64,000 nt of DNA from a virus (IMGVR_UViG_3300045934_000106:3919-67918); one strand, 5' to 3'; shown: positions 18,328 through 53,909, counted from the first letter of the stretch. Notes: a model not told the origin generated them from the letters alone. Translations and numbers: made by a program.

Positions 18328-18587
18328 TCGTCCACGCGCACGATGATCGTGACGTGCTGGCCACGGAGTTGACGCAGGCGCAGCCAGCCGGCGGAGTCGG
18401 GCTTGACCATGATCGCGCTCGCTTGCCCGACCGCGAACATCCCGTCCGCTAGTTCGTGGTCGCTTGAGGTGAGCTGGCCCATGCTGACCGTGTAGGACTC
18501 GCCGAACGCCGCCGCGGGCGCCCCGCAGGCGCGCAGCCCCGTGATCGCCACAATGAGCACGAACAGCCAGAGGCCCGCACGGCTCAT
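18324..18587 (-). CDS. exported or membrane hypothetical protein
   Basis: Hydrophobic N-terminus LWLFVLIVAITGLRAC. Confidence 0.6.
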   Translation of the reverse strand: MSRAGLWLFVLIVAITGLRACGAPAAAFGESYTVSMGQLTSSDHELADGMFAVGQASAIMVKPDSAGWLRLRQLRGQHVTIIVRVDE

Positions 18588-21417: not shown

Positions 21418-21434
21418 TCCCACCGCCTTTCGTC

Positions 21435-37453: not shown

Positions 37454-37462
37454 TGAGTCCCC

Positions 37463-39409: not shown

Positions 39410-40869
39410 TACCCTCCGTACGACAGCGACATCGGACTCCGCGCCGCCAGCCGTCGACGATTCCGGTTCCGTGAGGCGCCGGTCTGGAGACGGTCCGCCT
39501 CGGGTCCTAACGCCGCACTCATCAGTGGATCTGGTTGCAGGCCCTGACCCATCGAGCTACTCCGGTTGCGCGTCATCGCCGCACGGTCGTTCATGGATGG
39601 CATCGCCATCGGATCCGCGGGCTCCACAAACGGGCCTCCCGGTGCCGGCGGCGGCATCATGGGACTGCTCGGCGGCGCTCCCGGGATCGGCCGTCCCCAG
39701 GGCGACGTGGTCGACCGGGCGCCGCCCACCGGACCGAGGTTGCCGGCTACGGCCGAGGGATCACTGCCGATGGCGGAGAGCAGATCGATCGCCGTAAACC
39801 GTGGCGCGCTCGGATCGGTCGCGGTCGGGTTGACCGCGCGTCCACTGGCAATCTGATCGCGCATGGTGCCGGCAGCGGAGCGCATCTCCGGCGTGTAGGC
39901 GCCGGGCGTCTCCCGCTGATAGCGCGTGCCGGCGGCCACGGTGCGCGGCCCGCCGTTGATAATCCGGTCCAGTAGCGCCATCGCCTGCATCTGCGCCATG
40001 ACGTGGCTGTACGGGTCGCGGCCGCCTTCTTCGGTCAACGTGTCGAGCAGCGCGAGGTCGCGTTCCCGCGCGTCGCGGCTCTGCTCAATCTCCAGACTGT
40101 GCTCGCGGTTGGCGTCGCCTTCGCGGGCATTCGACCACGCGTTCAACCCGAAGCCCGCGGCCTCGAGCGCCGGCATCACCCAGGGCGATGACAACATTCC
40201 CCCTCCTGTCGCACTTCCTGCGGCGGTCGTGCCGGCCGCAGCGCCACCGCCCGCCGCCGACGTGCCAAACGTCGGGCCCAGCCCGCGGCTCACATTCGAG
40301 GCCAGCACCGGAGAGATGCCGGCACCGCCCGCCACTGCGCCACCTCCGGCTGCGGCCGCGCCGGGCACCAGGCCGGAGGCCACGGGAGCGGCATAGCCCG
40401 CCATCGGGGCCGTCCATCCGGTGGAGGCGAGGAGTCCGGTGCCGCCCGCTGCGGCGCCGCCGCCACCCGCCGCGCCGCCGGCCGCCGCGCCACCCGCCGC
40501 GCCACCGCCGCCACCACTGAAGGCACTCATCAGGGCCGGCCCGCCAAAGTACGCGCCCGCGCCGATCGCGGCCCCGATGCCGATGTTGCGGAGCAAGGTG
40601 TTGTGCTGGTTGATGTTCCCGGCGCCGTCGATGTGCATGCCGTCCGGCAAGCGGATGCCTTGACTGCCGAGCCACCGTTCAAATTCCGCCTGGTGCCGAT
40701 CGGACATGCGGATCCCGCGCCCGGTGTCGACCATGCCGCGCTGCGCCTTCCATTCCTGCACCTGCGGCAGAGACCCCAGCCAGCGATTGAACTGATCGAG
40801 CTGTCGTTCATCCGTGTCCCGGTCGGGCACCTGGCGGCCGTCCGGGGTGTAGTACCGCTGTCTCGGCAT
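39409..40869 (-). CDS. putative DNA pilot/ejection protein, Gly/Ala-rich
   Basis: Hydrophobic IGIGAAIGAGAYFGG segment and Gly-Ala tracts. Confidence 0.55.
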   Translation of the reverse strand: MPRQRYYTPDGRQVPDRDTDERQLDQFNRWLGSLPQVQEWKAQRGMVDTGRGIRMSDRHQAEFERWLGSQGIRLPDGMHIDGAGNINQHNTLLRNIGIGAAIGAGAYFGGPALMSAFSGGGGGAAGGAAAGGAAGGGGAAAGGTGLLASTGWTAPMAGYAAPVASGLVPGAAAAGGGAVAGGAGISPVLASNVSRGLGPTFGTSAAGGGAAAGTTAAGSATGGGMLSSPWVMPALEAAGFGLNAWSNAREGDANREHSLEIEQSRDARERDLALLDTLTEEGGRDPYSHVMAQMQAMALLDRIINGGPRTVAAGTRYQRETPGAYTPEMRSAAGTMRDQIASGRAVNPTATDPSAPRFTAIDLLSAIGSDPSAVAGNLGPVGGARSTTSPWGRPIPGAPPSSPMMPPPAPGGPFVEPADPMAMPSMNDRAAMTRNRSSSMGQGLQPDPLMSAALGPEADRLQTGASRNRNRRRLAARSPMSLSYGG

Positions 40870-41148
40870 TTACCCTCCCGCCTGTTCCGCTTCCACCGTT
40901 TCGAGCGCTTCGCGCATGGTCGTCATTTGCGCGTCGCCGCTGACGTTGCGCGGATCGTTGGCCGTCCGCCACGCGGCTTGGGTCCGCACGTTCAGCCGAT
41001 CCGCCCATTTCGTCATTGCGATCGCGACTTCGGACATCCCGCCCGCCGTGAGGACCTGCGTCGCCGTCAGGCCCCGCGAAGCGGCATACTCCTCGAGCGC
41101 GAGCTGCTGGTTGACGGTGAGCACAAAGTTGACTGCGGTGGTCGCCAT
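40870..41148 (-). CDS. hypothetical protein
   Basis: AAAGGA RBS; MATTAVNF start. Confidence 0.65.
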   Translation of the reverse strand: MATTAVNFVLTVNQQLALEEYAASRGLTATQVLTAGGMSEVAIAMTKWADRLNVRTQAAWRTANDPRNVSGDAQMTTMREALETVEAEQAGG

Positions 41149-41158
41149 GAGTCGTCCT

Positions 41159-42058
41159 TTACGGCGCAAACGTGTCCGACGTGAGGCAGATGTGAATGGT
41201 GTAGCCGCCGCCGCTGGAGACGCTGCACCCGGTGCCGCGCTGCGTGCCGAGATACCGGATGACCACGCAGCCCGTCATGCCATTCCCGCCGGCGCCGGTT
41301 CCGCCACCGCCGCCGCCACCGGCCCCGCACAGCGTCGCATTGCCGCCCGCGGCGTTGGCGCCCGATCCGCCCGTGCCGGCCCCTGTCCCGCCCGCGCCGC
41401 CCACGACGACGCCCGACCCCCCGCCGCCGCTGCCGTAGACGAACGTCGCGCCCGCGTAATCATTACTGTCGCCTTCGGCCCCGGCGCCACCCGTGCCGCC
41501 GCCCGCGGTCGTGCCATTGCTGCCCGTGCCGTTCGCGCCGCCCCCGCCACCGCCCGCGCTGTCTGCGCCCGCCGTGGAGACACCGTTGCCGCCGTTGTGG
41601 CCGTCGTCGCCCACGCCACCAGTTACCGTGCCGCCGCCCGCGTCGCGCGAGCCACCGCCACCACCACCCGCCCCGCCGTCGCCGCCGCCCGCGCTATTCG
41701 CCGTGCCGCCGCGTCCGCCGAACCCGCCACCATCGGCCGTGACGCTGATGGTGCCGCCGATGAGCGTCGTGTCAGCGCCGGCCGTGCCGCTATTCCCACT
41801 GCTCCCGCCCGCGCCAGCCGCCCCAATCGTGACGGTCAGGGCCGCGCCGCCGCGCACGACCGTGGAGCTCCCGGTCAGCGCCTCGCCACCGCCCCCGCCA
41901 CCGCCGGTCGCCGTGACGCCGTCGGTCGAATTGCCGCCGCCGCCGCCCGCACCCACCACGAGGTACTCGATGACGTACGTCTTGTTCACGCCGAGCAGGC
42001 GCATCAGTTGCGCCTCGCTCGAGGTCAGCGTCAGCGCGAGAAGCAGGAGCCAGCGCAT
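41159..42058 (-). CDS. glycine-rich domain tail-associated protein with signal peptide
   Basis: IEYLVVGAGGGGG...GCVVIRY; N-terminus MRWLLLLALTLTSSEA|Q. Confidence 0.75.
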   Translation of the reverse strand: MRWLLLLALTLTSSEAQLMRLLGVNKTYVIEYLVVGAGGGGGNSTDGVTATGGGGGGGEALTGSSTVVRGGAALTVTIGAAGAGGSSGNSGTAGADTTLIGGTISVTADGGGFGGRGGTANSAGGGDGGAGGGGGGSRDAGGGTVTGGVGDDGHNGGNGVSTAGADSAGGGGGGANGTGSNGTTAGGGTGGAGAEGDSNDYAGATFVYGSGGGGSGVVVGGAGGTGAGTGGSGANAAGGNATLCGAGGGGGGGTGAGGNGMTGCVVIRYLGTQRGTGCSVSSGGGYTIHICLTSDTFAP

Positions 42059-43048
42059 TTAGAAGTTCTGCCCCGCCGTGAAGCAATACCAGTTCGTCCC
42101 GGCGTTGTAGGTAAGGCAGGTGAAGAAGTCCTTTTTGCCGTTGGTGCTCGTCATTGTCGGTGCGGCCGCGCCCGCCCACGCGACGCTCGCTGGCCAGGTG
42201 ACCGTCCGCAGCGTGCCATCCGCCGTGAAGACCAGCGTGAACGAGCCCGCCTTCCCGGTCGTCGGCGCGTTCGAAATCGTCAGCGTCGTGATGTTCGCGG
42301 TGAGCGCGACATCGAAGTGCGTCGCCGTCGACAGGTCCAGCGTCAGGGCATTCGCGCTGATCGTCGGCGCCGTGCGCGTTTCGGTGTAGGTCAGCAGGTC
42401 GTTGCGCGCGGTGAACGCGTTGGCCGTGCCGAGCATCGCCACGCCCGTGAGGTTCGTGCCCGACAGTGACGCGAAGTAGGTCGAGCTGATGGCGGGAATC
42501 TGGCCGGTGGCGCTGACAATACCGACGTTGCCGGAGCCGGCGTTGATGCCGCCCGCCACATCGAGCGCGTTGATGCCGGCGCCGAAGATGTTGGCCGTGG
42601 ACCCCACGAAGAGGTCGGTGTTCGTGGCAATCGCGCCGGAGGCGTTGAAGGACCCCGCCACCACCGTGTTCCCGGTCGCCGCGGCGATCGTGACGTTCCC
42701 GCTGCCGATGTTGACGTCGCCGGCAATATCCACGGTCGAACCCGCGGTGAGTGCCCCTGAGAAATTGCCGAGGACGCTGTAGAAGGCCGCCCAGCGTGTT
42801 CCGCTGGCGCCCAGATCGCGCGTGTTGTTGCCGTCGGCGACGATGGCCCGGGTCGTCAGGGTGCCGGTCATGGTGCCGCCCGTGCGGTTCAGGGCGTTCG
42901 CGTAGACGGCATTGACGATGGTGTTCACCTCGTCGGGCGAAATAATCGTGCCGGCCGTGAAGGTGAACGGTGGGGAGCCGAGCTGCGCCGAGGCGACTCC
43001 GGTCGCCAGCAGCAGCGCAAGAGCGATTCCGAGCAGTCGGTTACGCAT
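42059..43048 (-). CDS. tail fibre-like protein with signal peptide
   Basis: FTAGTIISPDEVN, LNRTGGTMTGTL, C-terminal TVTWPASVAWAGAAAPT...KKDFFT; N-terminus MRNRLLGIALALLLATGVASA|Q. Confidence 0.75.
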   Translation of the reverse strand: MRNRLLGIALALLLATGVASAQLGSPPFTFTAGTIISPDEVNTIVNAVYANALNRTGGTMTGTLTTRAIVADGNNTRDLGASGTRWAAFYSVLGNFSGALTAGSTVDIAGDVNIGSGNVTIAAATGNTVVAGSFNASGAIATNTDLFVGSTANIFGAGINALDVAGGINAGSGNVGIVSATGQIPAISSTYFASLSGTNLTGVAMLGTANAFTARNDLLTYTETRTAPTISANALTLDLSTATHFDVALTANITTLTISNAPTTGKAGSFTLVFTADGTLRTVTWPASVAWAGAAAPTMTSTNGKKDFFTCLTYNAGTNWYCFTAGQNF

Positions 43049-43358
43049 CGACGGTGTTCTCCCTGGCGGTGACGAAGACGAGGAGGGCACGCGTCCCATT
43101 CGCGCTCGCCAGCAGATAGGCGACGTCCTTCGTCCACAGATTCCCGACGGGCGTGTAGACGATGCCGCCCACTTGACTCAATACAACCATGCCGATGGGT
43201 ATTTCGCCCATACCGTGGGCCACGTCGACGACCGTGCTGTTCGAGGGGAAGTACACCTCGAAGATCTTTGAACACGCCGCGAACGGCCATTCAAAGGGCT
43301 GTCGGCGGTCCACCGCCACCAGGGCATCGGACGTCGGACGATCAACGGGCCGCGGCAT
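43041..43358 (-). CDS. hypothetical virion protein
   Basis: VAHGMGEIPIG motif typical of small tail-associated proteins. Confidence 0.6.
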   Translation of the reverse strand: MPRPVDRPTSDALVAVDRRQPFEWPFAACSKIFEVYFPSNSTVVDVAHGMGEIPIGMVVLSQVGGIVYTPVGNLWTKDVAYLLASANGTRALLVFVTARENTVDA

Positions 43359-43361
43359 TCG

Positions 43362-45476
43362 TTACCCGTTCACGCTCGGGACGAGCCGCTTCGAGAGCGG
43401 ATCGCAGGTGACGCCGAACTGCTTGAGTCGCACTTCGGACGAGGGATAGAAGTTCCAGAACTGGATCTGGAGCGTCACGAACGTGCGTTCAAACCGCTGT
43501 TTCTTCAGGGACTGCCCCGGCCCGCCGGACCATTCCGACTCGCCCCAGATGGCTTGACCCCAGATCGCGCCGGCCTGCTCGATCGGGAACGCGAGATCGT
43601 TGATGGCGGTGACGTGCCCGTCGTCATCGTTGAACCGGATGCGCGCGAACAGGCTCTGGTCGTCGGCGCTGGAGCTTGCCGCCACGAACAGGAAGCGCGA
43701 TTGCTTCGCGTGCGTCGGGACCTTGAAATCGAGGAACGAGGTATTCCAGAACCACCGGATCCCGCCGACGATCACCTCCCAGCCGTCGCCGGACGGCACG
43801 GGCGACAGCTCCGGCCCGTTGGTCGTGTCCAGGGTGATCACCGTGCCGGTATTTGAGGCCGCCCGGACCCACTGCCAGATGCCGGCCGGACTTTTCACGG
43901 CAATGGGCATGCCCGCCAGCCCGCCGCCGGTCGTGTAGAACGTCGCCCCGCTCGCGGTAATCGTGCTGACCGTGGCGCCCGTGATGGTCTCTTCCGTCGT
44001 GCCACTCGGCGGCCCGTCGTGCGCGCCGTCGAACATCTGGTAGACGCGGCCCCAATGGTCGCCCATATACAGGCCGAGATCGCCGTTGGTGTCGGTGAAC
44101 TGCGCGAACGATCCGTACTCGTGCCCGGTGATCGGGGGAAGCCAGGCACCGAGCAGGTAGTGATACGCGAGCAGCGTCCGCACGCGCGTCGTCGACGTGG
44201 TCGGGACGCTCCAGATCACGAGGTTGTTGACTTCGTCGTGGACGCAGCGAATGAGCGCGAGCGCTTGTTTGTTGACCGTCGCGATGAAATTCGAGATCCG
44301 GCTGTTGCCAATCGACCGCCACGCCGAGAGGTTCGTCACATACGGGCCGCGAATCCGGTCCCAGCCGTACAGTTCGCTGTCCACCTCGACGCACGACTCG
44401 GCGCTGACGTTGCCGTACGTCTGGTGGAGGCGCTTCGGCTTGAACGGTACCCGGTCGCCCACGAGCTCCCACGTCGCATGGGCCGTGCCGATGATGCGCC
44501 GCTCCGAGAACTCGAGGCCCCACGTCAGCGCGTCGCCCGTGGCGCGCGAGATCGGGAAGTTATCGCGCGGATGCCAGCTTTGCAGGTCGCCGAGCTTGCT
44601 GATGTCGACGGCGTCGGTGTTCGCGCGGATGCCGAACCCGTAGCCGTTCATTTCAAACAGGTGGATGAAGTTCCCCGGCGGCGGATCGTTCACGCTCGTC
44701 TTGTCGGCGATCTGGTTCGCCCGGCGCGTCGTGTCGGTGACGGTCTCGGTGGCGCTGCCCGTGGCGACGGTCCAACTCCCGGCGAGGTAGTAATTCAGCT
44801 CGTTCGTATCGGTGCGTCGCACCCACGCGCGCCAGTGGGTCGCCGCAGACGGAACGCTGCCACCGGGTTTGGTGTGCGTCCGGCCCTGCGCCGCCAGGGC
44901 CTGCGTAGCCGTCGCATCGGAGATGGAACTGTCGTGGTCCATCGCCGAGTCGTACCAGGTATAGACGGCCTCATAGGTGCCGGTGAGCGTGCCGGCGCCC
45001 GCCGACATATTCGTGACCGACGACGGCCGCGCGAAGCCGATGTCATAGAGCGCCGAGCCGTCATAGCGCTTCTGCGCCGAGCCATCGTAGATGAACGCGT
45101 TGCTCTTGAACGGCGTCATCCGGGCCTGATTCCCCGCCGTGCCGAACGCGCTGCCGATGGTCGACGTGGACCCATTGACCGGGTCCACTTCGGAGAGCTG
45201 GCCGTTGCACATCGCGAGCAGCTCGGCCGCCGCGGCCGGCCGACGGAAATCAAACAGGCCGTCGACGCGCTTCGCTGACGCCATCACCGTCGGGTTGATC
45301 AGCCGGACGCCCGGACGGACCCCCATTTCGCACTGCCGCGAATCGAGGTTCGCTTCGTAGAGAAAGGCGTTGGCCGCGTCGGGCGTCGCGAACGGCGGCA
45401 GCGTGCTCGGGGTGTCGAGGAAGCCGGCCGAGAAGTTATCCACCCAGATGTCGGAGATCGGTTGCTGGGCACTCAT
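43362..45476 (-). CDS. tail tubular/nozzle (P22 gp10 / T7 gp12-like) protein
   Basis: DNFSAG...DAAN...RPG N-terminus, beta-propeller-like body, position after the adaptor. Confidence 0.65.
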   Translation of the reverse strand: MSAQQPISDIWVDNFSAGFLDTPSTLPPFATPDAANAFLYEANLDSRQCEMGVRPGVRLINPTVMASAKRVDGLFDFRRPAAAAELLAMCNGQLSEVDPVNGSTSTIGSAFGTAGNQARMTPFKSNAFIYDGSAQKRYDGSALYDIGFARPSSVTNMSAGAGTLTGTYEAVYTWYDSAMDHDSSISDATATQALAAQGRTHTKPGGSVPSAATHWRAWVRRTDTNELNYYLAGSWTVATGSATETVTDTTRRANQIADKTSVNDPPPGNFIHLFEMNGYGFGIRANTDAVDISKLGDLQSWHPRDNFPISRATGDALTWGLEFSERRIIGTAHATWELVGDRVPFKPKRLHQTYGNVSAESCVEVDSELYGWDRIRGPYVTNLSAWRSIGNSRISNFIATVNKQALALIRCVHDEVNNLVIWSVPTTSTTRVRTLLAYHYLLGAWLPPITGHEYGSFAQFTDTNGDLGLYMGDHWGRVYQMFDGAHDGPPSGTTEETITGATVSTITASGATFYTTGGGLAGMPIAVKSPAGIWQWVRAASNTGTVITLDTTNGPELSPVPSGDGWEVIVGGIRWFWNTSFLDFKVPTHAKQSRFLFVAASSSADDQSLFARIRFNDDDGHVTAINDLAFPIEQAGAIWGQAIWGESEWSGGPGQSLKKQRFERTFVTLQIQFWNFYPSSEVRLKQFGVTCDPLSKRLVPSVNG

Positions 45477-46435
45477 CCCATGAACGGCCGAATCCGCGGC
45501 CGTGCCGGTTGAATCGTGTTGTCGTGACCGACCAGCGCGATGAGCGACGCGTTCGATCCCTGATCGACGTCAGTCAGCTCGCCGCGATTGACCTTGAAGT
45601 AATTCCCCATGCGCTCGAGGAGCGCAGAGACCCAGAACTGCGGCACCGTATCGGCGTCATAGAGCAGGCGTTTCGGCAGACGGAGACACGGCACGCCGAT
45701 GATCTGGCCCGCCGTGATCGGCTTCGGGTGCAACACGATCGTCGGAATCTCCACCTGACTCTGTTCCGGTAAGAGTTTCTGGAGCGTCGCGCCGGCGGAG
45801 TCCAGGCGCAGCGTCACCGTGCCGCGCGAGCTGGTGTGCTCGGTGTCCGGGGTGTCCGCCTCGGTGTACGCCTTCGTGAACCCGGTGATCGGCGGGAACC
45901 ACGTGCCGGCCGCGACCGGCGTCGTGCCATTGAGCGTCAGCTGCGCCTCGTCGACGACGCCGTCACTGTTGATGCCCTGCACGACGACGGCAATATCGGT
46001 GTCGCTGGCGTGGGACGAGACCAGTTCGAGCGCTTGGCCCGCCGTGTCCGGCTGCGTCGTCACCGCCGACACGCCGCCGAGCGAGTACCGCTCTGGCACG
46101 CTGGCCACTTCGAGGTCCGTGCCCGCCTCCGGAAACTCCATCCACAACGCGTCAAGGTCGTAGGGCACGAGATCGCGCCCGGTCGTGAGGTTCCGCACCC
46201 GCAGGTGCGGCGGAATGCGCCCGAAATACGGCGGGAGCGCATAGGTGCGCTGGTCCGCGACGGTCGTGACCTGCACGGGATCGGGCATCCGGTGATCTTT
46301 GAACGGATGGCGCAGCCAGATGTCGAGATAGGAGACGTTCAGGAGCCGTTCGGCGAGATCGCGCGACCGGGTATCGCCGTACTCGCCGTGCATGTGCAGA
46401 AACGTGTCGAGCAGCTCGCGGCGTGAGTTGTTCAT
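45473..46435 (-). CDS. head-tail adaptor protein
   Basis: LLNVSYLDIW...TVADQRTYALP motif; position. Confidence 0.65.
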   Translation of the reverse strand: MNNSRRELLDTFLHMHGEYGDTRSRDLAERLLNVSYLDIWLRHPFKDHRMPDPVQVTTVADQRTYALPPYFGRIPPHLRVRNLTTGRDLVPYDLDALWMEFPEAGTDLEVASVPERYSLGGVSAVTTQPDTAGQALELVSSHASDTDIAVVVQGINSDGVVDEAQLTLNGTTPVAAGTWFPPITGFTKAYTEADTPDTEHTSSRGTVTLRLDSAGATLQKLLPEQSQVEIPTIVLHPKPITAGQIIGVPCLRLPKRLLYDADTVPQFWVSALLERMGNYFKVNRGELTDVDQGSNASLIALVGHDNTIQPARPRIRPFMG

Positions 46436-46605
46436 TGACAGGTGATCCGGTACTTCTGCTGCAAGGGCGGCGACGCGCAGATCACGTCAATCGTCACCGC
46501 CTTGACGAACTCGAACTCTTGGGCATGGCGATACGCCAGGGCCGCGAGGCCGAGCACGAGCAGCCCCGCGAGCGTGCCGCCGAAGGCCAGGGCGAACGTC
46601 CGCAT
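46432..46605 (-). CDS. small membrane protein
   Basis: MRTFALAFGGTLAGLLVLGLAAL. Confidence 0.55.
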   Translation of the reverse strand: MRTFALAFGGTLAGLLVLGLAALAYRHAQEFEFVKAVTIDVICASPPLQQKYRITCQ

Positions 46606-48749
46606 CACTTCAACAACAGCCGGAGCAGGGGCTTCAGGTAGCTGATGATTTCCGGCGGCAGCTCTGGCTCGGTGCGGGGATCGGGAAACTCGCTCGGGGT
46701 GTAGTAGAGGACCCACGCCGAACCGTTCCAGCGATAGAGCTGGCCATCAGGCGTCGCGCCGTTCGTGGTGTTCCACTCGCCGACATCCGTCGCCCAGAAG
46801 GCGACATTGACGAGCGTCGGCGTGATGGTGTTCATCTGCGCGAAGGTGCCGACGCCGACCCCATGGCCCGACTGCGCCGCGGCGGCGCTCCCGTCGAACC
46901 CGGCGGAGGCGTGGCCGTGCGGGTAGCCGTCGTGATCGAACTTATGCGTCCCAGAGCGGACCGGGTGATTCTGATTGTGCGTCCCGCCCCACGGCAGATT
47001 GGTGTTGTTGACGCCGACTGTGTTCAACCACTGGTAGCACCCTTCGACCACCTGATCGTACGGAATGACCGGGACGTGATCGCTCTGTGCATTGTTCGCC
47101 GTGCCGGTGTAGTTCGGCCGGTGGAGGTTGAACGAGAAATTGTTCGCCGTCGGCGCCGGGTCCGCGAGGATGTCATACGTGCCTTCGATGTCCCCCTTGG
47201 TCGAGCCGAGGTGAATGTAGTCGTCCGCGTCCAACCCGTGATTGGTCCGCGTGGCCGTCACGAGGCTGTTGGTGTAGCTGTAGTTGAACGTGCGCGACGA
47301 AATCCGCGTGCCCTGACCGGCGCACGAGTTATCGAAGAGCTGATTCACGCGGTTGATCTCGACGACGAGGGGCGGATCGTTGTCCGTGAACCGGTGCGGC
47401 TCGTTCGCCTGTTCCGCGGCGAGGTCGACGGTCAGCACGCCGATCCCATCCGTGACGCCGTTATTCGACCGGATGCGCCCATGGCACATCGGCGACGCCG
47501 GGACGGTGGATCCGTTCCCGCCGTTGGAAAAGCACCCCTGGACCTTCAGCACCATGTCGACGTAGTCGTCTTCGATCCACGTCACATTGCCCGCTGTCGT
47601 GATTTCCCATTCGTGCCCGTTCGCGTGCGGTGTGATGGTGCCAATCGTGAACACTTTGAACGGATTGCCGGCGTCGTTGAGGTCCCAGATGCACTCGCCA
47701 TCGGCGGAACAGAAATGCCGCCCCTCGTGTGAGTCCCAGCGGTTCGTCTCGAACTGGCCGACGCTATCGTTGTTGGCGAGGTCCTCGTAGTCGTTCATGA
47801 ACGCGATCCAGGACCCAGAGCGGAGCTGCCCCTGGTTGCTCACGCCGACGAAGGTGTTGCCGTAGTATTCGCCGCACCGGCTGCCACGGAGACGCCCGCC
47901 GCTCTCGGTGCCGTGCGCGTTGATGTTGCCGTTCTGGACGTAGTTATACCGAAACACGTAGCTCGTGCCGCCCCACGAGTCGGTGACCGGAATGCCGCTC
48001 GTCAACGAACCCGTCTTGACGATGTAGTTCGACTCCATGAGGACGGTCGTCGTGGTCCCGCGTGGACACGGATCCGCCCACCTCTGATCGGGATAGGCAA
48101 AGCTGTTCGCGGTCGTCCCGACGTTCTGCATAAAGTCGGTGCCGGAGGTGCGCGAGAAATAGTTGTGGTCAATGAGGCCGTTCCCCGTGAACGGCTCGAA
48201 GAACTGATCCGGGTCACTGGTGGTCGTGAAGCGGATATGGTCGTACCGGAACATCCGATCATCGAGCGGATCGCCCGTGGTCTGTCCGTTGACTTGCAGC
48301 AACCCGGCGCCCGTGCCGAGGTTCGTCGCGCCATCGAGAAAGGCGACATGCGCGAGACGCGCCGTGGTGCCGGTCGCCGTCGTGATCACAAACAGCGACG
48401 ACGTGCTGCCGGCTGGGAGGTCGTTCGTGATGATCGTGGTGCACGCTGACGGGATGCCTTCGATGCCGCCCATCGTCTCGAGCGTGCAATCCTCCTCGCC
48501 CCGGACGGTGATGTCGTGGGCCTGCGGCTGCAACGTGACCTGCGCCGTCCACGAGCACGAGCCCGTCTTGATATAGACCGTGTCAATTTCGCCGGCCGAG
48601 GCTTCCGCCTCGTCGATCACTTTCTGCACGTCTCCCTCTTCGCACGAGGCCGACGTGACCGAGTCGCGCAGGGTGAGCGTCTTCAGTTCTCCGGCGGTGG
48701 TGACGATCAGAATGATGATGGATGTCGCAACGCTGGCGGCTAACTTCAT
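46605..48749 (-). CDS. beta-helix (pectate-lyase-like) tailspike/depolymerase-like protein with signal peptide
   Basis: SCEEGDVQKVID...DTVYIKTGSCSW, GLIDHNYF, YVFRYN, EYYGNTF; hydrophobic N-terminus; many Cys. Confidence 0.65.
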   Translation of the reverse strand: MKLAASVATSIIILIVTTAGELKTLTLRDSVTSASCEEGDVQKVIDEAEASAGEIDTVYIKTGSCSWTAQVTLQPQAHDITVRGEEDCTLETMGGIEGIPSACTTIITNDLPAGSTSSLFVITTATGTTARLAHVAFLDGATNLGTGAGLLQVNGQTTGDPLDDRMFRYDHIRFTTTSDPDQFFEPFTGNGLIDHNYFSRTSGTDFMQNVGTTANSFAYPDQRWADPCPRGTTTTVLMESNYIVKTGSLTSGIPVTDSWGGTSYVFRYNYVQNGNINAHGTESGGRLRGSRCGEYYGNTFVGVSNQGQLRSGSWIAFMNDYEDLANNDSVGQFETNRWDSHEGRHFCSADGECIWDLNDAGNPFKVFTIGTITPHANGHEWEITTAGNVTWIEDDYVDMVLKVQGCFSNGGNGSTVPASPMCHGRIRSNNGVTDGIGVLTVDLAAEQANEPHRFTDNDPPLVVEINRVNQLFDNSCAGQGTRISSRTFNYSYTNSLVTATRTNHGLDADDYIHLGSTKGDIEGTYDILADPAPTANNFSFNLHRPNYTGTANNAQSDHVPVIPYDQVVEGCYQWLNTVGVNNTNLPWGGTHNQNHPVRSGTHKFDHDGYPHGHASAGFDGSAAAAQSGHGVGVGTFAQMNTITPTLVNVAFWATDVGEWNTTNGATPDGQLYRWNGSAWVLYYTPSEFPDPRTEPELPPEIISYLKPLLRLLLK

Positions 48750-49576
48750 TCCCCTCCTTGGTTCCGCAAGTGCTCGAAGAACTCACCGACGTGGAGCAAC
48801 AGGCCACGTCCGGTCGACGTGGCGGTATCAGCCGCCGCGATCTCGGCCGCGAGACCGGCCGTGTTCACGCTCGACGCGGCATCGCAGACCACGCTCGTGT
48901 CGTTGTCGGTCCGGTACGAGAGCTGAAACCCGCGCGTGGGCGACGTGCCCGTGTTGTCATCCAGCTCGGTAAAGCCCGTCTCGTCGTTGAAGAGCGTGCC
49001 GGCCTGCGCGCCGCAGAACTTCACCGCCCCGTTGAACGCCGAGCTAAAGGCCGAGAGCGAAATGGTCACATTCGACGGCGTGTCTGCCGAGTTCCCATTC
49101 GACTGCACAACGGCACCCGCGCCATTCGTCCCCGTCGTGACCACGCCGGTGAACTCGATCATGTTGATCGTCACCGCGGAGGTCGTCTCACCGAAGTTGA
49201 CCGTATACGTGCCCGATCCGGGCGCCGCGTTCAGGCACCGAAAGAGCGTGACGCGGAACGTCGGCGAGGCTTCGGTGTTGAATTGCCGGGAGACGACGGG
49301 ATCCCAGGTGCACGTCAAACTGCCGTTGGACGAGGCCGTTGGCGTGGCCGGGGTGCCCGAATCGCGGGCACTCAGCACCGCCAAGAGCACGAGCGCGTTC
49401 GCGGTGGGAGACGCCGACGAGGCACTCGTGAAACTCGTGTTGTCTGCGTTGGTTTCCAGCGCACCGTTCGTGACGAGCGCCGCCGCCAGCGCGCGCCGCG
49501 CCTCGATCTGCACGACGTGCCACGGCAGCAGCGAGAGGAGCGCCAGGACGATCAGCCAGATCGGCGGTCGGCGCAT
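48746..49576 (-). CDS. Ser/Thr-rich beta protein with signal peptide, tail/surface module
   Basis: MRRPPIWLIVLALLSLLPW...; S/T/A-rich mature region. Confidence 0.65.
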   Translation of the reverse strand: MRRPPIWLIVLALLSLLPWHVVQIEARRALAAALVTNGALETNADNTSFTSASSASPTANALVLLAVLSARDSGTPATPTASSNGSLTCTWDPVVSRQFNTEASPTFRVTLFRCLNAAPGSGTYTVNFGETTSAVTINMIEFTGVVTTGTNGAGAVVQSNGNSADTPSNVTISLSAFSSAFNGAVKFCGAQAGTLFNDETGFTELDDNTGTSPTRGFQLSYRTDNDTSVVCDAASSVNTAGLAAEIAAADTATSTGRGLLLHVGEFFEHLRNQGGE

Positions 49577-50662
49577 TTACTGCTCGGTAATGACGCCGTA
49601 GATCCCCACGGCAGCATTCGTGTTATCCGTGCTCGTCGGACCGCCCGTGATGCAATAGCCCAGGCCCGTGCCGAACGCGATGCCCTTCGTCCCGAACGAG
49701 AACGCAAAGCCAGCGCCCGATGTGCTCGCCGGAATCGCGAGCGAGAAGGTGAACCCGGTCGCGGAGCTGCACGTCGGCGACGTCGCGAGGTTGTAGAACC
49801 GGATGTAATAGATCGTCGAGGTCGTGTTGACCAAATAGACGCCCATCAACCGGCCGGCTTGGTTGTTCAGCAGCGTCGCGTTGTTCGATGCCGCGCTCAC
49901 GACGGGGTTGCCCTGCGATCCGGTGTGTAGCGGATCGTCCGTCGACGTCACGACGCGCGTGGTCGTGCTATCGATGACGCCCGCGCCCGCCGAGCTCGTG
50001 CTGATGGCATTGCCCGACGCGTCATAGACGGTGACGCGCAAGCTGTTCGCCGTGGTGTTCGTGATCGCGTCACCGCCCGCGGCATCCTTCAACACGCCGT
50101 CGTAGGGCAGATCGTCGTTGACGACCTCGCTGCCGGTGGAGTCGACGAGCATCACGCGCAGCGCATCGGCGCCGGCCTGCGTGACCGCATCGCCCCCTGG
50201 CGCATCCTGCAAGACGCCGTCAAAGGACGCGGCCGCCGCGACGCTCGACGCACCGCCCGCCGGACTGCCGCGCAGGAATACCTCAACCTCGCCGGTCGAC
50301 CATCCCGACGAGATCACGCGAATCGCGTTCTTCCCCGCCGTCGGACAGTCCCAAATCCCGTTGGCAGACGATCCGGTGACGGTGACGGTCTCGTCCGGCG
50401 CGAGACAGTTCACGGTCTGATAGTTTTCGAGGTCGATCGAGACCTGAAACTCCAGCGTGCCCGTCCACGTCCCGGTCAGCTGCACGCCGACGGTCGCCCA
50501 GCCGCCGGTCGGCAAACCGATACCGCCGGTCAGTAGCTGGACGGGTTCGTCGACGGCGTCGATCGTGCCCGTCGGCACAATCTGCGCGTCGACCCGTGAC
50601 GGCGCCAGGAGAGCACCCGCCGCCAGGACGGCGCTCAGCCACCGACACATCCACATCTTCAT
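49577..50662 (-). CDS. virion-associated beta protein with signal peptide
   Basis: MKMWMCRWLSAVLAAGALLAPSRVDA|Q; VQLTGTWTGTLEFQVSID; C-terminal YIRFYN...GIAFGTGL. Confidence 0.7.
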   Translation of the reverse strand: MKMWMCRWLSAVLAAGALLAPSRVDAQIVPTGTIDAVDEPVQLLTGGIGLPTGGWATVGVQLTGTWTGTLEFQVSIDLENYQTVNCLAPDETVTVTGSSANGIWDCPTAGKNAIRVISSGWSTGEVEVFLRGSPAGGASSVAAAASFDGVLQDAPGGDAVTQAGADALRVMLVDSTGSEVVNDDLPYDGVLKDAAGGDAITNTTANSLRVTVYDASGNAISTSSAGAGVIDSTTTRVVTSTDDPLHTGSQGNPVVSAASNNATLLNNQAGRLMGVYLVNTTSTIYYIRFYNLATSPTCSSATGFTFSLAIPASTSGAGFAFSFGTKGIAFGTGLGYCITGGPTSTDNTNAAVGIYGVITEQ

Positions 50663-50902
50663 TGCTCTCTCGCCTTTTTGGCCCGGCTTCGGAGCAGGTG
50701 AATCTCGACGCACGGCGGGTGGATCAACTCAATCCCTGCCCCGCCGTACGCCGTGGGTGCTTACGCTTCCTTCGCCCAGGTGCCGACGATGAACTCGATG
50801 CGCCAGGCCGAGGTCCTCGAGGAAGCGCGCCAGCGGTTCGTTGGTGAGATAGGACATTCAGGATCTCCCTTTGTCGAAAATGAGTCACACGGACTCGGTT
50901 GC

Positions 50903-51286
50903 TTACGTGGCCACCGTGTAGGTGTGACCGACCGCAAGACCGACCACGAGCCACTTGTAGGTGGTGTCGGCCGTGCGAATACACGTCGCCCGGATGAGCG
51001 CGCCGATCTTCTGGCCAGAGGTCGATGCCGCGAGCGAGTTCGCCGCCGCATCGTTGAACGTGACGACGTCGCCCGCTGTCGCGCCGGCCACGACGATGTT
51101 CTGATCGGCCACGCCGAGGAACTCGTAGCGGTCGCCGAGGTAGCTGATGTTCGGGGTCGGCAACGTGAACGTCACCGATCCGGAGGCGCCGCGGTTGGTA
51201 AAGAGCGTGCCGCTGCGATCGGCCATGCGGGTCACGCTGTAGGCGGCCGTCTTGTCGACGACACGCTGTTTCGGAACGAGTGGCAT
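50903..51286 (-). CDS. capsid decoration/cement protein
   Basis: KTAAYSVT...DRSGTLFTNRGASGSVTFTLP motif; close to the capsid gene. Confidence 0.65.
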   Translation of the reverse strand: MPLVPKQRVVDKTAAYSVTRMADRSGTLFTNRGASGSVTFTLPTPNISYLGDRYEFLGVADQNIVVAGATAGDVVTFNDAAANSLAASTSGQKIGALIRATCIRTADTTYKWLVVGLAVGHTYTVAT

Positions 51287-52565: not shown

Positions 52566-53909
52566 TTAGGCCGCCTTCACCGCGAGCTGGTTGACGTCGA
52601 TCCCTTCCCCGCGCGCGTTCACGTTCGGACGCTGGCAGTGGAAGTTGTCCTGAATGAGGTAGTAAGCGGTGAACTCGTCGTACTCCGCCACCCACTTCAG
52701 GACGTGACCCTCATCGGCCGCCCACTCGCCTTCGTTCTCGACGTAGCGGGTCCACGAGGCTTTGTTGATGCCGAAGAGCATGCGATAGGGCGCATCGCGG
52801 TCCACGAAGAGCGGGATGTCGCCGTAGGTGATGGCGCGGCCCGCGGGCTTCTTGGCCGCGACGGTGCCGCCGTCCGGACGCGAGAGATCCGCGCCCGTGT
52901 AGCGCCGGTCGGCCTCGAGCAACGTCAGATAGGCGCGGCGGACGGCATGCTCACACGCGAACATGTCGAACTGCTTGCCCGTCTTGATGTTGACCGCATC
53001 GACCATCTGCTGGATGGCGTCCAGCGAGAGCGCGCCGATGCTGGTGGCGACGTAGGCGTTGAGAATGGGATAGGTCGTGCGGCTCAACCCGTGGTAGGTC
53101 GCGACGTAGGTGCCGTCGTCGATCCCCGCGAGCAAGCCTTCCGGCTCCTGGTTGAGCGAGGTCTGCGTGGCCGACTGCGCGATGACGATCTTCGCGTTGT
53201 CGTCGCAGGTGATCGCTGTGTCGACCGTCACGGACGTCAGGGCGGTGGCGACCGCGGTAACGGTGGCGGTGCCCTGAATGTTGTTCGACGAGTCGAGGAA
53301 CGCGAGGAACATGCCCGACGTCGCGTCGCCGTCGATGAAGCGCGCGCCGCCGGCCGAGCCCGCCACGTTGGCCGGGGAGTCGACTTCAATGGTGGTGTCG
53401 GCGGTCTGCGCGCCGTTGACCAGCGCGAGAATGCCCGACCCATAGCCCCACACGACGCGATTGCGATGGAACGCCATCGCCTCGGTGAGCGCTTCCATTT
53501 CCGCCGGGATGACCTGCTGCCAAGACCCCTTCTTGTTGCGCGACTGTGCGATGACGTTCCGCTCGAACCCGACGCGCCCATACGTGTTGCGCATCGGAAC
53601 TTCGAAGTTCTCGTACACCGAACGGCCGGCCTGCGGCAGACGGCCGCGATTCGGGATCGAGCCAATCGACCGGTTGCGGCCGATCATGATCGGGACCACC
53701 TTCTGGCGGCCGACCCATGAATCGTCCTTGACCTCTGACTCCATCCACTTCGTCATGAGGTTCTCTTCGTTCACTTGGCTGTGGATCACGGGACCGTAGT
53801 CGTCTTTGAACAACGGATCCCACTGCGTGGTGTCGGACCCCGGCATCCACTGACGGTCATGCAGGCCGTCGAATCGAAGGTCCGAGCACGCGTGAAAACT
53901 GAATTTCAT
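52566..53909 (-). CDS. major capsid protein
   Basis: LFKDDYGPVIHSQVN...GRNRSIG...LPQAG, WGYGSGILA, EPEGLLAGID, C-terminal RPNVNAR; follows the scaffold; AGGAG RBS. Confidence 0.8.
   Translation of the reverse strand: MKFSFHACSDLRFDGLHDRQWMPGSDTTQWDPLFKDDYGPVIHSQVNEENLMTKWMESEVKDDSWVGRQKVVPIMIGRNRSIGSIPNRGRLPQAGRSVYENFEVPMRNTYGRVGFERNVIAQSRNKKGSWQQVIPAEMEALTEAMAFHRNRVVWGYGSGILALVNGAQTADTTIEVDSPANVAGSAGGARFIDGDATSGMFLAFLDSSNNIQGTATVTAVATALTSVTVDTAITCDDNAKIVIAQSATQTSLNQEPEGLLAGIDDGTYVATYHGLSRTTYPILNAYVATSIGALSLDAIQQMVDAVNIKTGKQFDMFACEHAVRRAYLTLLEADRRYTGADLSRPDGGTVAAKKPAGRAITYGDIPLFVDRDAPYRMLFGINKASWTRYVENEGEWAADEGHVLKWVAEYDEFTAYYLIQDNFHCQRPNVNARGEGIDVNQLAVKAA

What the first reader, a model, noticed from the sequence alone, without database searches (positions are those of the whole stretch)
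41159..50662. Five tail/fibre-module proteins carry N-terminal export signal peptides
Seen: MRWLLLLALTLTSSEA|Q (42058), MRNRLLGIALALLLATGVASA|Q (43048), MKLAASVATSIIILIVTTAG (48749), MRRPPIWLIVLALLSLLPW (49576) and MKMWMCRWLSAVLAAGALLAPSRVDA|Q (50662). Their mature regions resemble tail fibre, glycine-rich and beta-helix spike proteins, and several are rich in Cys. The adaptor, nozzle, capsid and portal proteins lack such leaders. Established: tailed-phage virions normally assemble in the cytoplasm without Sec export. Inference: receptor-binding appendages are exported, folded (possibly with disulfides) in the periplasm and attached at or after lysis. Alternatively they act as host-surface or receptor-blocking proteins. 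Either would be an unusual morphogenesis route.
Basis: partly seen in the sequence, partly recalled or inferred. Interest (0 to 1): 0.8.

Follow-up and report, generated by a model that had tools for sequence, protein, structure and literature searches.

The report
Phage tail fibre with export signal
An uncultured short-tailed phage, like a whole group of its relatives, puts export signals on its tail fibre and on several neighbouring late proteins, so these parts appear to leave the cytoplasm in which the rest of the virus particle is built.

Summary
The five hydrophobic leaders are at the stated coordinates, in a 67.9-kb podovirus-like IMG/VR genome. They cluster in the tail module: 5 of 10 ORFs there against 2 of 46 elsewhere, p=0.0012. 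Four starts are well supported. The start of the glycine-rich protein is ambiguous.

Relatives settle the "wrong start" objection:
- The fibre sits directly after adaptor-nozzle-g105 in related phages, and 12 of 13 IMG/VR fibres carry a leader ending A|Q or G|Q.
- Leaderless homologues begin exactly at the predicted cleavage site.
- 75 of 81 homologues of the 361-aa protein have leaders. Its first domain matches XepA/YomS (Z 14), and XepA is reported as exported and absent from particles.
- All 3 homologues of the 714-aa beta-helix-like protein have signal peptides.
- 6 of 8 homologues of the 276-aa protein are leaderless.

Export is therefore well supported by inference. What happens afterwards is untested. 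My leading reading (about 0.4) is that the fibre rejoins virions when lysis merges the compartments, because I found no leaderless fibre-like candidate. The main rival (0.35) is that all five act on the cell envelope and never join the virion. Cysteine richness is not supported. Six literature searches listed no Sec-exported tail fibre of a tailed phage. Interest is high, but the phage is uncultured.

The parts
49577..50662 (-). SP361. A 361-aa precursor: leader MKMWMCRWLSAVLAAGALLAPSRVDA|Q (about 50585-50662), a YomS/XepA-like beta-sandwich (residues 25-134), a disordered linker (138-245), and a conserved C-terminal beta-sandwich (250-360) with two near-invariant Cys.
   Evidence: start context. 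81 homologues, 75 with leaders. Alignment A1 shows C298 and C337 at 90% or more. AF2 model with mean pLDDT 74.7. Foldseek: YomS E 2.8e-5. VIA: XepA Z 14.0 and YomS Z 13.6.
48746..49576 (-). SP276. A 276-aa protein with an N-terminal hydrophobic segment (MRRPPIWLIVLALLSLLPW..., most likely an uncleaved signal anchor) followed by a beta-sandwich domain with no clear solved-structure match.
   Evidence: TAAATG coupling; the only alternative start is a GTG at codon 22 with no SD. 8 homologues: 6 leaderless, starting where SP276 residue ~31 aligns, and 2 with leaders. AF2 pLDDT 79.7. Best VIA-wide Z 5.6.
46605..48749 (-). SP714. A 714-aa protein with the leader MKLAASVATSIIILIVTTAG (signal peptide or anchor), followed directly by a right-handed beta-helix-like body with 12 Cys.
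   Evidence: strong SD AAGGAGGGG, ATGA overlap. All 3 of 3 distant homologues have classical signal peptides at the same place. Atlas: the nearest clusters are bacterial, with beta-helix families, and are aligned from residue ~19-27. No Pfam, PHROG or NCBIfam hit.
46432..46605 (-). A small 57-aa membrane protein (MRTFALAFGGTLAGLLVLGLAALAY...). It is wedged between SP714 and the adaptor gene with overlapping stop and start codons, making a sixth membrane-targeted product of the module.
   Evidence: A similar small TM protein is present in relative L007.
45473..46435 (-). Adaptor-like protein, 320 aa, without a leader.
   Evidence: PF24175 SU10_adaptor at E 2.5e-4, which is below the curated cut-off. 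Conserved in relatives. KD10 0.51.
43362..45476 (-). Nozzle-like tail protein, 704 aa, without a leader.
   Evidence: Weak PHROG hits. 23-45% identical homologues lie directly upstream of the fibre in the loci examined. KD10 0.70.
43041..43358 (-). g105. A small, conserved, leaderless protein between nozzle and fibre.
   Evidence: alignment A3, 7 sequences, 12 invariant columns. No family hit.
42059..43048 (-). Tail-fibre precursor, 329 aa: leader MRNRLLGIALALLLATGVASA|Q (42986-43048), a conserved N-domain (QLGSPPFTF...ALNRTGGTMTG), a shaft, and a C-terminal tip domain (~200-329).
   Evidence: PHROG tail-fibre families (phrog_9017, 1.7e-16, residues 230-326). 6,309 hits to the tip domain. tblastn to annotated fibre proteins of Caulobacter, Roseobacter and Synechococcus phages. 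Leaders in relatives. Alignment with leaderless forms. Synteny. Tree.
41159..42058 (-). SPgly299. A glycine-rich protein of 299 aa, with a possible short leader MRWLLLLALTLTSSEA|Q. Its start is ambiguous between codon 1 and codon 19.
   Evidence: PF21722 Gly_rich_2 at E 1.3e-11 and 45.4 bits (cut-off 24.3), covering residues 28-269. phrog_2295 at 1.2e-14. Start contexts. No relatives found.
50903..51286 (-). g127. A conserved small head-proximal protein that marks the upstream border of the variable island. It has no leader here.
   Evidence: Relatives L004, L005 and L006 carry a second copy with an N-terminal hydrophobic extension.
52566..53855 (-). Major capsid protein, without a leader. It was used to find the related phages.
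   Evidence: phrog_14242 at 2.1e-42. Six IMG/VR relatives at 73-87% identity.

Best explanation
The leaders are real Sec-type export signals, and they are a stable, clade-wide trait of an uncultured group of podovirus-like phages.

The genes sit in one tightly packed late operon with the capsid, adaptor and nozzle genes, but their products are threaded across the inner membrane.
- The fibre and the 361-aa protein are cut by signal peptidase I after A-x-A. This leaves an N-terminal glutamine that may be cyclised, as in the 'Q-rule' of Bacteroidetes.
- The 714-aa and 276-aa proteins are either cut or stay anchored.

Two classes are involved.
1. The core tail fibre, encoded right after adaptor-nozzle-g105. 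It has a conserved N-domain and an exchangeable tip domain.
2. A variable island between the head genes and the adaptor gene. Here it holds a YomS/XepA-like two-domain protein, a beta-sandwich protein and a beta-helix protein.

Most likely mechanism. Virions are built without fibres in the cytoplasm. The fibres mature in the periplasm. The two meet when holin lesions and lysis merge the compartments, and the processed fibre N-terminus then docks on the tail. The island proteins act on the cell envelope (as XepA is said to do) or are added to particles in the same way.

Basis of each step:
- Shown: the leaders, their conservation, the synteny, and the register with leaderless homologues.
- Inferred: export and cleavage.
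- Weakly inferred: attachment of the fibre after export.
For: 1. Leaders cluster in the module: 5 of 10 ORFs against 2 of 46 elsewhere, p=0.0012.

2. Fibre relatives. Homologues in G001, G003 and G004 have leaders of different sequence, all ending A|Q, followed by a conserved mature N-terminus, and SD-like motifs precede their starts. In a scan of IMG/VR with the N-domain alignment, 12 of 13 loci have a leader and 1 of 13 (L026) is leaderless.

3. Register. Leaderless homologues (6 proteins plus L026) start M-A-[LIF]-[ST]-[IV]-P, exactly on the -1/+1 positions of the leader-bearing forms.

4. No escape by a downstream start. There is no alternative start codon between leader and mature N-terminus in G004, L017 and L020.

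5. Synteny. adaptor-nozzle-g105-fibre is seen in L006, L015, L016, L017, L020 and L021. nozzle-fibre is seen in the more distant L019, L023, L024, L025 and L026, where nozzle identity is 23-28%.

6. The state is heritable. On a tree of 34 N-domains (26 with leader, 7 leaderless, 1 truncated) the leaderless label needs 2 changes against a shuffled mean of 6.6, and 0 of 500 shuffles were as low.

7. No leaderless fibre was found. The own genome has no second copy. In G000, G003 and G004 nearly every accessory ORF between g127 and the adaptor gene has a leader or TM segment, and none of the few leaderless ones (a 137-aa ORF in G003) looks like a fibre.

8. The tip domain is a widespread fibre-tip domain.

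9. Homologues of the other proteins. For SP361, 75 of 81 homologues have leaders and 58 of those 75 have a candidate AXA|Q site, against 2.7% Q overall. For SP714, 3 of 3 homologues have signal peptides.

10. The mature parts of all five proteins have an even number of Cys, and SP361 has two near-invariant Cys.

11. No promoter-like site, and only one terminator-like site (inside the nozzle gene), was found across 40.5-52.8 kb, and stop and start codons overlap, so the genes are expressed with the virion genes.

12. Phage-fibre-like trimers can mature after Sec export: the Bdellovibrio MAT fibres all have a signal peptide followed by a conserved N-domain (PMC10769870, passages read).
Against: - I know of no tailed phage that exports a tail fibre, and none turned up in what I saw. 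All textbook assembly is cytoplasmic (my knowledge).
- Attachment after export was not tested by any search.
- XepA, the structural relative of SP361, is reported as exported and NOT present in mature particles (PMC6834076, passages).
- SP714's nearest kin are bacterial secreted proteins, and its helix starts right after the leader with no particle-binding domain.
- 6 of 8 homologues of SP276 are leaderless, as is the SP361 relative in cultured Caulobacter phage S2B. The leader is therefore not essential to these families.
- SPgly299 may start at codon 19.
- Cys content is not higher than in other proteins.
- My hydropathy heuristic gives false positives. It flagged upstream extensions of the MCP ORF in L006 and L020 and an internal start in the window.
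- SignalP was not run.
- The host is unknown, so a periplasm is inferred only from a lipoprotein-like ORF and the A|Q sites.
- Mixing after lysis is brief, so efficient docking would need the interval between holin triggering and outer-membrane rupture. That is my inference.
Confidence: 0.4

Rival explanations
1. The proteins are exported but never join the virion. All five, the fibre-like one included, are late accessory proteins that act on the infected cell's envelope. Possible roles: masking or destroying the phage's own receptor (exclusion of superinfection, protection of progeny from debris), helping lysis as XepA is proposed to do, or display on the cell surface like the Bdellovibrio MAT fibres. 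Host recognition by the virion would then rest on the nozzle or on a protein not yet recognised.
For: - XepA is exported and absent from particles (PMC6834076), and SP361's first domain matches it at Z 14.0.
- P. gingivalis phages encode five signal-peptide proteins obeying the Q-rule, which the authors read as able to modify the host outer membrane (PMC10367356, passages).
- SP714's kin are secreted bacterial proteins without a particle-binding domain.
- The island between g127 and the adaptor gene is hypervariable among relatives, like a moron region.
- MAT fibres show that fibre-like does not imply virion.
- Lom, Bor, Llp and Cor are exported products of phage genes. This is recalled from memory and comes from no call.
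Against: - The fibre is not in the variable island. It is a core syntenic gene after nozzle-g105 in all 11 loci examined.
- Its N-domain is conserved to the first mature residue with leaderless forms, which is hard to explain if it no longer docks on a tail.
- This reading leaves complete genomes (G000; G003 with terminal repeats; G004) without any recognisable leaderless receptor-binding protein.
- Sec export alone delivers a protein to the periplasm, not to surface receptors.
Confidence: 0.35
2. Dual fate. Export is partial. One fraction of the fibre folds in the cytoplasm and is built into virions with or without its leader. The exported fraction blocks or cleaves receptors.
For: - It reconciles the need for a virion receptor-binding protein with a real signal peptide.
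- Both leaderless and leader-bearing forms exist in the same families, so both compartments are compatible with folding.
Against: - The A-x-A|Q site is conserved in the SP-bearing fibres, and the exact register with leaderless N-termini points to selection for cleavage, which happens only after translocation.
- An uncleaved hydrophobic leader at the docking end would be expected to interfere (inference).
- No internal start is available in several relatives.
Confidence: 0.12
3. The hydrophobic N-termini are not export signals. They are artefacts of start-codon choice, or hydrophobic helices with a cytoplasmic role such as trimerisation or docking.
For: - SPgly299 has a better SD before codon 19.
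- SP276 has a GTG at codon 22, and most of its homologues are leaderless.
- Longest-ORF calling produced a false leader on MCP homologues.
Against: - For the fibre, SP361 and SP714 the leader design (basic n-region, 11-18 hydrophobic residues, and A-x-A in the fibre and SP361) recurs in homologues with unrelated leader sequences.
- Several fibres have no downstream start.
- Strong SD and stop-start coupling sit at the upstream starts.
Confidence: 0.05

Closest known systems
XepA (PBSX) and YomS (SPbeta) of Bacillus subtilis prophages, PDB 6I56 / 6I5O
   Same: SP361 residues 25-134 superpose on the XepA C-terminal domain (Z 14.0, rmsd 2.0 A, 103 residues) and on YomS (Z 13.6). The next match is at Z 9.7. 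Foldseek puts YomS first at E 2.8e-5. Both are late phage proteins with two beta-sandwich domains. XepA is described as exported beyond the cytoplasmic membrane and absent from mature particles (PMC6834076, passages).
   Different: - The paper reports no transmembrane domain in XepA; that it lacks a classical Sec leader is recalled. SP361 and 75 of 81 homologues have one.
- XepA lies in the lysis cassette. SP361 lies between the head and tail genes.
- SP361's conserved C-terminal domain is a different, unnamed sandwich.
- No sequence-level family match was obtained.
- Oligomeric state was not tested.
Signal-peptide proteins obeying the Bacteroidetes Q-rule in Porphyromonas gingivalis phages (PMC10367356; Q-rule: PMC5837995)
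   Same: Phage-encoded proteins with SPase-I leaders that expose an N-terminal Gln. Here that holds for 3 of 5 in the window, for 58 of 75 leader-bearing SP361 homologues, and for the SP-bearing fibres.
   Different: Those are five genes of unknown function, read as modifiers of the host surface (passages). Here one of the proteins is the syntenic core tail fibre. The host here is unknown and the genome has 66% G+C. Supplementary Data 4 of that paper, which lists the genes, could not be opened.
Bdellovibrio bacteriovorus MAT (mosaic adhesive trimer) fibres (PMC10769870)
   Same: The architecture is shared: signal peptide, then a conserved beta-rich N-domain, then a fibre with exchangeable tip domains. 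These are phage-tail-fibre-like trimers that mature after export (passages).
   Different: MAT fibres are cellular proteins displayed on a predator's surface. The present fibre is encoded beside the nozzle gene of a phage. Homology of the N-domains was not tested.
Classical podovirus tail fibres such as T7 gp17 (recalled, no call)
   Same: The gene lies next to the tail-tube genes. The N-terminal part is conserved and the distal part variable. Fibre attachment is a late step in assembly.
   Different: Classical fibres have no leader and are assembled in the cytoplasm. No T7-type N-domain or any other Pfam family was detected here.
Exported products of phage genes such as lambda Lom/Bor and T5 Llp / phi80 Cor (recalled, no call)
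   Same: Sec-dependent export of phage-encoded proteins that act at the envelope. Some are encoded inside or beside tail gene clusters.
   Different: Those are small lipoproteins or outer-membrane proteins with no fibre architecture. There are not several per genome, and they are not core structural genes.

Membership tests
Sec / signal peptidase I signal peptide | Basic n-region followed by a 7-15 residue uncharged hydrophobic core at the extreme N-terminus | tested here: met
   All five have K/R in the first 2-7 residues and a hydrophobic core of 9-18 residues. SP714's core (18 residues) is long enough to be an anchor.
Sec / signal peptidase I signal peptide | Small residues at -3 and -1 (A-x-A) after the core | tested here: inconclusive
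   Met for the fibre (ASA|Q), SP361 (VDA|Q) and SPgly299 (SEA|Q). SP276 has only IEA|RR, and SP714 has no clear site (read by eye). No trained predictor was available.
Sec / signal peptidase I signal peptide | The leader recurs in homologues with divergent leader sequence | tested here: met
   Fibre: 12 of 13 loci. SP361: 75 of 81. SP714: 3 of 3. Not met for SP276, with 2 of 8. SPgly299 has no relatives.
Sec / signal peptidase I signal peptide | Actual translocation and cleavage | not testable with these tools
   This needs PhoA or beta-lactamase fusions, or N-terminal proteomics.
Phage tail fibre (receptor-binding protein) | Encoded beside the tail-tube genes, with a conserved N-domain and an exchangeable distal domain | tested here: met
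   Synteny. N-domain conserved while the C-terminal parts differ. Tip domain with 6,309 hits in proteins of many lengths.
Phage tail fibre (receptor-binding protein) | Sequence similarity to proteins annotated as tail fibres | tested here: met
   phrog_9017 at 1.7e-16 and four further PHROG families labelled tail fiber. tblastn to annotated fibre proteins of Caulobacter, Roseobacter and Synechococcus phages, covering the C-terminal 30-78% only. Those annotations are themselves predictions.
Phage tail fibre (receptor-binding protein) | Present on the virion | not testable with these tools
   No cultured relative carries the N-domain.
XepA / YomS family (PF27453) | YomS-type beta-sandwich fold | tested here: met
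   VIA: Z 14.0 and 13.6, well above the next row at 9.7. Foldseek top hit YomS, E 2.8e-5. The model's pLDDT is about 90 in residues 31-130.
XepA / YomS family (PF27453) | Match to the Pfam profile | tested here: inconclusive
   hmmscan found no XepA hit for SP361, or for P0021, which carries a precomputed PF27453 label. The local Pfam copy may lack this model. The Atlas gives XepA only as a minority label.
XepA / YomS family (PF27453) | Pentameric disc; position in the lysis cassette | not tested
   Oligomer state was not modelled. The position here is between head and tail genes, not in the lysis cassette at 20878-22372.
Right-handed parallel beta-helix (pectate-lyase-like) proteins, for SP714 | Beta-helix repeats recognisable by profile or fold | tested here: inconclusive
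   No Pfam hit at E up to 0.01. The Atlas's own model (pLDDT 0.57) aligns to unnamed bacterial clusters (TM 0.54/0.71) and to Beta_helix/NosD clusters at TM 0.32-0.36. I did not fold it myself.
Gly_rich_2 (PF21722), for SPgly299 | Profile match above the curated cut-off | tested here: met
   E 1.3e-11 and 45.4 bits against a cut-off of 24.3, residues 28-269.
Bacteroidetes Q-rule substrates | Gln at +1 of the SPase I site | tested here: met
   3 of 5 in the window. All 12 leader-bearing fibres in the loci. 58 of 75 SP361 homologues have a candidate A-x-A|Q site against 2.7% Q overall. 'Any candidate site' inflates this count somewhat.
Bacteroidetes Q-rule substrates | Host belongs to Bacteroidota and has a glutaminyl cyclase | not testable with these tools
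   The host is unknown. The only prophage-like hit of the SP361 family in species genomes was in an Acidobacteriaceae MAG. The fibre N-domain was found in 1 of 301 Acidobacteriota genomes, and only marginally, at E 9.6e-4.

The most novel reading that the evidence does not exclude
A broad, old group of podoviruses completes its virions outside the cytoplasm. The receptor-binding fibre, and perhaps further appendages, is Sec-exported. It is trimmed by signal peptidase to a defined, possibly pyroglutamate-capped N-terminus and folds in the periplasm. It docks on fibre-less particles only when holin lesions or lysis join the two compartments. That would be a two-compartment morphogenesis route for tailed phages.
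Probability: 0.35. Interest if true: 0.9.

Novelty: new variant of a known kind. Interest (0 to 1): 0.72.

Why it matters
Tailed-phage assembly is taught as a purely cytoplasmic process. A core tail fibre with a conserved, cleavable export signal, kept across phages whose nozzle proteins are only about 25% identical, would break that rule in one of two ways. Either part of the virion matures in the periplasm, or these phages use a fibre-like protein for something other than adsorption and recognise hosts by an unknown part.

Practical consequences:
- Annotation pipelines and receptor-binding-protein predictors would need to expect leaders.
- Recombinant fibres from such phages should be expressed without the leader, or in the periplasm.
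- The A|Q sites offer a sequence-only clue to host phylum.
- The natural pairs of leader-bearing and leaderless homologues that start at the same residue give a clean experimental handle.

Tried and rejected
**No relatives among GenBank phages**
- Megablast of the 9.5-kb region against GenBank phages found no match.
- tblastn of SP714 and SPgly299 found none.
- tblastn of the fibre N-domain and of the leaderless L026 N-domain found none, even at E 1 and 0.1.
- So no cultured relative with virion proteomics could be used.

**Host search**
- One genome-contig scan with the SP361 alignment gave a single locus, in an Acidobacteriaceae MAG next to terminase and portal genes.
- The fibre N-domain profile hit 0 of 1 and then 1 of 301 Acidobacteriota genomes, marginally.
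- The host remains unknown.

**Complex prediction**
- A job with the mature fibre N-terminus (3 copies) and g105 (3 copies) returned 'no answer', score 0.00.
- It says nothing either way. The adaptor and nozzle were not tried.

**Fold and family searches**
- SP276's best wide-search match was Z 5.6, which is not meaningful.
- PDB sequence searches for the fibre and SP714 gave nothing below E 0.07.
- I considered a T9SS C-terminal sorting domain for the conserved C-terminus of SP361. No NCBIfam hit appeared at E up to 0.05, so I dropped the idea.
- Tat signal: no twin-arginine motif is seen in the five leaders (by eye).
- Pfam on long and leaderless fibre homologues found no known N-terminal anchor domain.
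- PHROG, Pfam and NCBIfam searches on g105, g99, the 486-, 648- and 308-aa proteins, g158 and g245 returned nothing.
- BFVD shows the SP361 fold in many phages, including cultured ones, all uncharacterised.

**Other**
- SPgly299 has no relatives in IMG/VR or in the three related complete genomes.
- Six literature searches listed no paper describing a Sec-exported tail fibre of a tailed phage. I saw only titles and the starts of abstracts of the listed papers, plus passages of six papers. Subscription journals are not in the library.

Full report
**What the window is.** The window is bases 3919-67918 of a 67,918-base IMG/VR virus record rated 100% complete, with about 66% G+C. Nearly all genes between 20 and 64 kb lie on the minus strand. 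In order of transcription they are:
- portal (phrog_156, 1.8e-13)
- a scaffold-like protein
- major capsid protein (phrog_14242, 2.1e-42)
- three small conserved proteins, the last of which is g127
- three proteins with leaders (361, 276 and 714 aa)
- a 57-aa membrane protein
- an adaptor-like protein (weak PF24175 hit, below the cut-off)
- a 704-aa nozzle-like protein
- g105
- the fibre (329 aa)
- a glycine-rich protein (299 aa, PF21722)
- five proteins ending in a 4,698-aa polyvalent protein

No promoter-like site, and only one terminator-like site (inside the nozzle gene), was found between 40.5 and 52.8 kb. Neighbouring genes abut or overlap. This is therefore one late operon of a podovirus-like phage. 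No GenBank phage is close: MCP identity is at most 38.5%.

**The observation.** The five quoted N-termini are there. With a simple hydropathy criterion, 5 of the 10 ORFs in 41159-51286 have an N-terminal hydrophobic leader, against 2 of 46 ORFs elsewhere. Both of those two lie next to the lysis genes. Fisher p is 0.0012. Capsid, portal, adaptor and nozzle proteins have none.

The leaders are not equal in quality. The fibre (ASA|Q) and the 361-aa protein (VDA|Q) are textbook cases. The 714-aa and 276-aa proteins look more like signal anchors. The 16-residue leader of the glycine-rich protein is doubtful, because a second ATG at codon 19 has a better ribosome-binding site. The claim of cysteine richness fails: 1.36% against 1.07%. 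All five mature parts do have an even number of Cys.

**Are the leaders translated and conserved?** Six IMG/VR relatives were found with the MCP, at 73-87% identity.
- In each of them the stretch between the g127 homologue and the adaptor gene has different genes. It is nonetheless again full of ORFs with leaders, many ending A-x-A|Q.
- The fibre homologues of G001, G003 and G004 have leaders of unrelated sequence but the same design, all cut before Q. A conserved mature N-terminus follows.
- An exhaustive profile search gave 6,309 hits to the fibre, mostly to its tip domain.
- Among the best 150 hits, the ones sharing the N-domain mostly carry leaders. Six begin M-A-[LIF]-[ST]-[IV]-P with no leader.
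- When aligned, that Met-Ala falls exactly on the -1/+1 positions of the leader-bearing forms.

A scan of IMG/VR with this alignment returned 13 loci: 12 with a leader and 1 (L026) without. Three leader-bearing fibres have no possible start codon between the leader and the conserved N-terminus. The 'true start downstream' objection therefore fails for the fibre. On a tree of 34 N-domains the leaderless state needs two changes, against 6.6 in shuffles (0 of 500 as low). The state is inherited, not noise.

**Is it really the tail fibre?** Several lines agree:
- The order adaptor-nozzle-g105-fibre holds in L006, L015, L016, L017, L020 and L021.
- In more distant loci (nozzle identity 23-28%) the fibre still directly follows the nozzle gene. 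This includes the leaderless L026.
- The C-terminal ~130 residues match PHROG families labelled tail fibre.
- They also match annotated fibre proteins of cultured Caulobacter, Roseobacter and Synechococcus phages.
- The genome has no second copy.
- In the complete genomes G000, G003 (with terminal repeats) and G004, nearly every accessory ORF between g127 and the adaptor gene has a leader or TM segment, and none of the few leaderless ones looks like a receptor-binding protein.

**The island proteins.**
- *SP361* has 81 homologues that share a ~100-residue C-terminal domain with two near-invariant Cys. 75 of the 81 have leaders, and 58 of those 75 have a candidate A-x-A|Q site, against 2.7% Q overall. 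Its AF2 model (pLDDT 74.7) shows a leader helix, a sandwich (27-134), a disordered linker and a second sandwich. The first sandwich matches XepA (Z 14.0, rmsd 2.0 A, 103 residues) and YomS (Z 13.6), with the next row at 9.7. Foldseek ranks YomS first. [quoted passage not shown] A leaderless relative exists in cultured Caulobacter phage S2B, between small lysis-like genes and the terminase gene. The fold is common among uncharacterised phage proteins.
- *SP714* has three distant homologues, all with classical signal peptides. One lies on a 291-kb contig. The Atlas places it among bacterial beta-helix proteins, aligned from just after the leader.
- *SP276* has 8 homologues, 6 of them leaderless. 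Its fold matches nothing clearly.

**Comparison with what is known.** Phage-encoded exported proteins are known. Besides XepA, passages of PMC10367356 report five signal-peptide proteins in P. gingivalis phages that obey the Bacteroidetes Q-rule and may modify the host outer membrane. PMC5837995 (passages) gives mean Q-values of 71% in Bacteroidetes and 2-77% elsewhere. The A|Q sites here therefore hint at a host with a high Q-value, but the host was not identified. The Bdellovibrio MAT fibres (PMC10769870, passages) show that fibre-like trimers with a signal peptide and a conserved N-domain can mature after export. I found no report of a tailed-phage tail fibre with a Sec leader in six searches. 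I saw only the listings, plus passages of six papers. Supplements, including the gene list of the P. gingivalis study, were closed.

**Mechanism.**
- *Shown:* the leaders, their conservation, the synteny, and the register with leaderless forms.
- *Inferred:* Sec export, and SPase I cleavage for the fibre and SP361.
- *Open:* what happens next.

For the fibre I favour re-joining the virion when holin lesions or lysis merge the compartments (0.4). The gene behaves as the clade's core fibre, its docking end is conserved to the first residue, and no leaderless alternative was found. The rival is that all five act at the envelope and never join particles (0.35). It is favoured by XepA, by the secreted bacterial relatives of SP714, and by my finding no precedent for exported fibres. 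Partial export with a dual role (0.12) and non-functional leaders (0.05) remain possible. A complex prediction for the fibre N-terminus with g105 gave no answer and counts neither way.

**Verdict.** It extends to a whole phage clade. The export reading is well supported, and the morphogenesis reading is plausible but untested. I file it as a new variant of a known kind (phage-encoded exported late proteins). It carries a substantial chance (about 0.35) of being a new assembly route. Interest 0.72.

Noticed in passing
window 22430-41169 (minus strand): The five consecutive proteins after the fibre module (99, 486, 648, 308 and 4,698 aa, 6,239 residues in all) contain no cysteine. Other leaderless proteins of the phage have 1.07%. 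The ORFs that follow the fibre in relatives G003 and G004 also have 0 Cys. A Cys-free set of presumably ejected proteins may reflect passage through the oxidising periplasm. That is my inference.
   Followed up: partly
window 22430-36526 (minus strand): A 4,698-aa polyvalent protein with LPD38 (3.8e-33), a 2'-5' RNA ligase-like domain, ResIII/SNF2 and Helicase_C domains, and a weak Eco57I-type methylase match. It lies at the end of the structural operon, so it is probably packaged and injected.
   Followed up: partly
window 50663-50902 (minus strand): The 240-base gap upstream of the 361-aa gene holds a 32-codon ORF (MSYLTNEPLARFLEDLGLAH...). Its start resembles the N-terminus of a 179-aa ORF at the same place in relative L002. 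It looks like a remnant left by recombination at the border of the variable island.
   Followed up: no
L004 12946-13485, L005 13048-13623, L006 13475-14041, L020 4584-5075: Relatives carry a second copy of the small head-proximal protein g127 with an added N-terminal hydrophobic segment and a shared '...LIALG.L...' motif. L002 has a leaderless version of the motif-bearing protein.
   Followed up: no
L015 10900-11268, L016 11017-11388, L017 11167-11520, L020 11035-11364, L006 20754-21200: In five relatives a small ORF (109-148 aa) with a leader and a coiled-coil-like mature part directly follows the fibre gene. In the window that position is taken by the glycine-rich protein. It could be a periplasmic partner or chaperone of the fibre.
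   Followed up: no
window 18324-18587 and 20878-22372 (minus strand): A likely lysis region:
- a 181-aa lipoprotein-like ORF (MGMRAVLCVVALSMVAC...) with a metallo-protease PHROG hit (6.3e-7)
- a 180-aa muramidase-like ORF (NF040573, 7.6e-8, far below the cut-off)
- a 132-aa ORF with a C-terminal TM segment
- further off, an 87-aa ORF with a leader

From. These are the only other leader-bearing ORFs of the window.
   Followed up: partly
L006 9935-11281 and L020 979-2325: Taking the longest ORF gives MCP homologues a false signal-peptide-like extension (for example MKNRMSLAGTLVLLMSGQASA-HMPGSD...). The conserved protein starts at the internal MPGSD. This is a caution for leader calls based on the first start codon.
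   Followed up: partly
window 41159-50662 and homologues: Gln at +1 of the predicted cleavage site is very common: 3 of 5 in the window, all 12 leader-bearing fibres, and 58 of 75 SP361 homologues. This may be usable as a sequence-only hint that the hosts have a high 'Q-value' (Bacteroidota-like). That would be unexpected for a genome with 66% G+C.
   Followed up: partly
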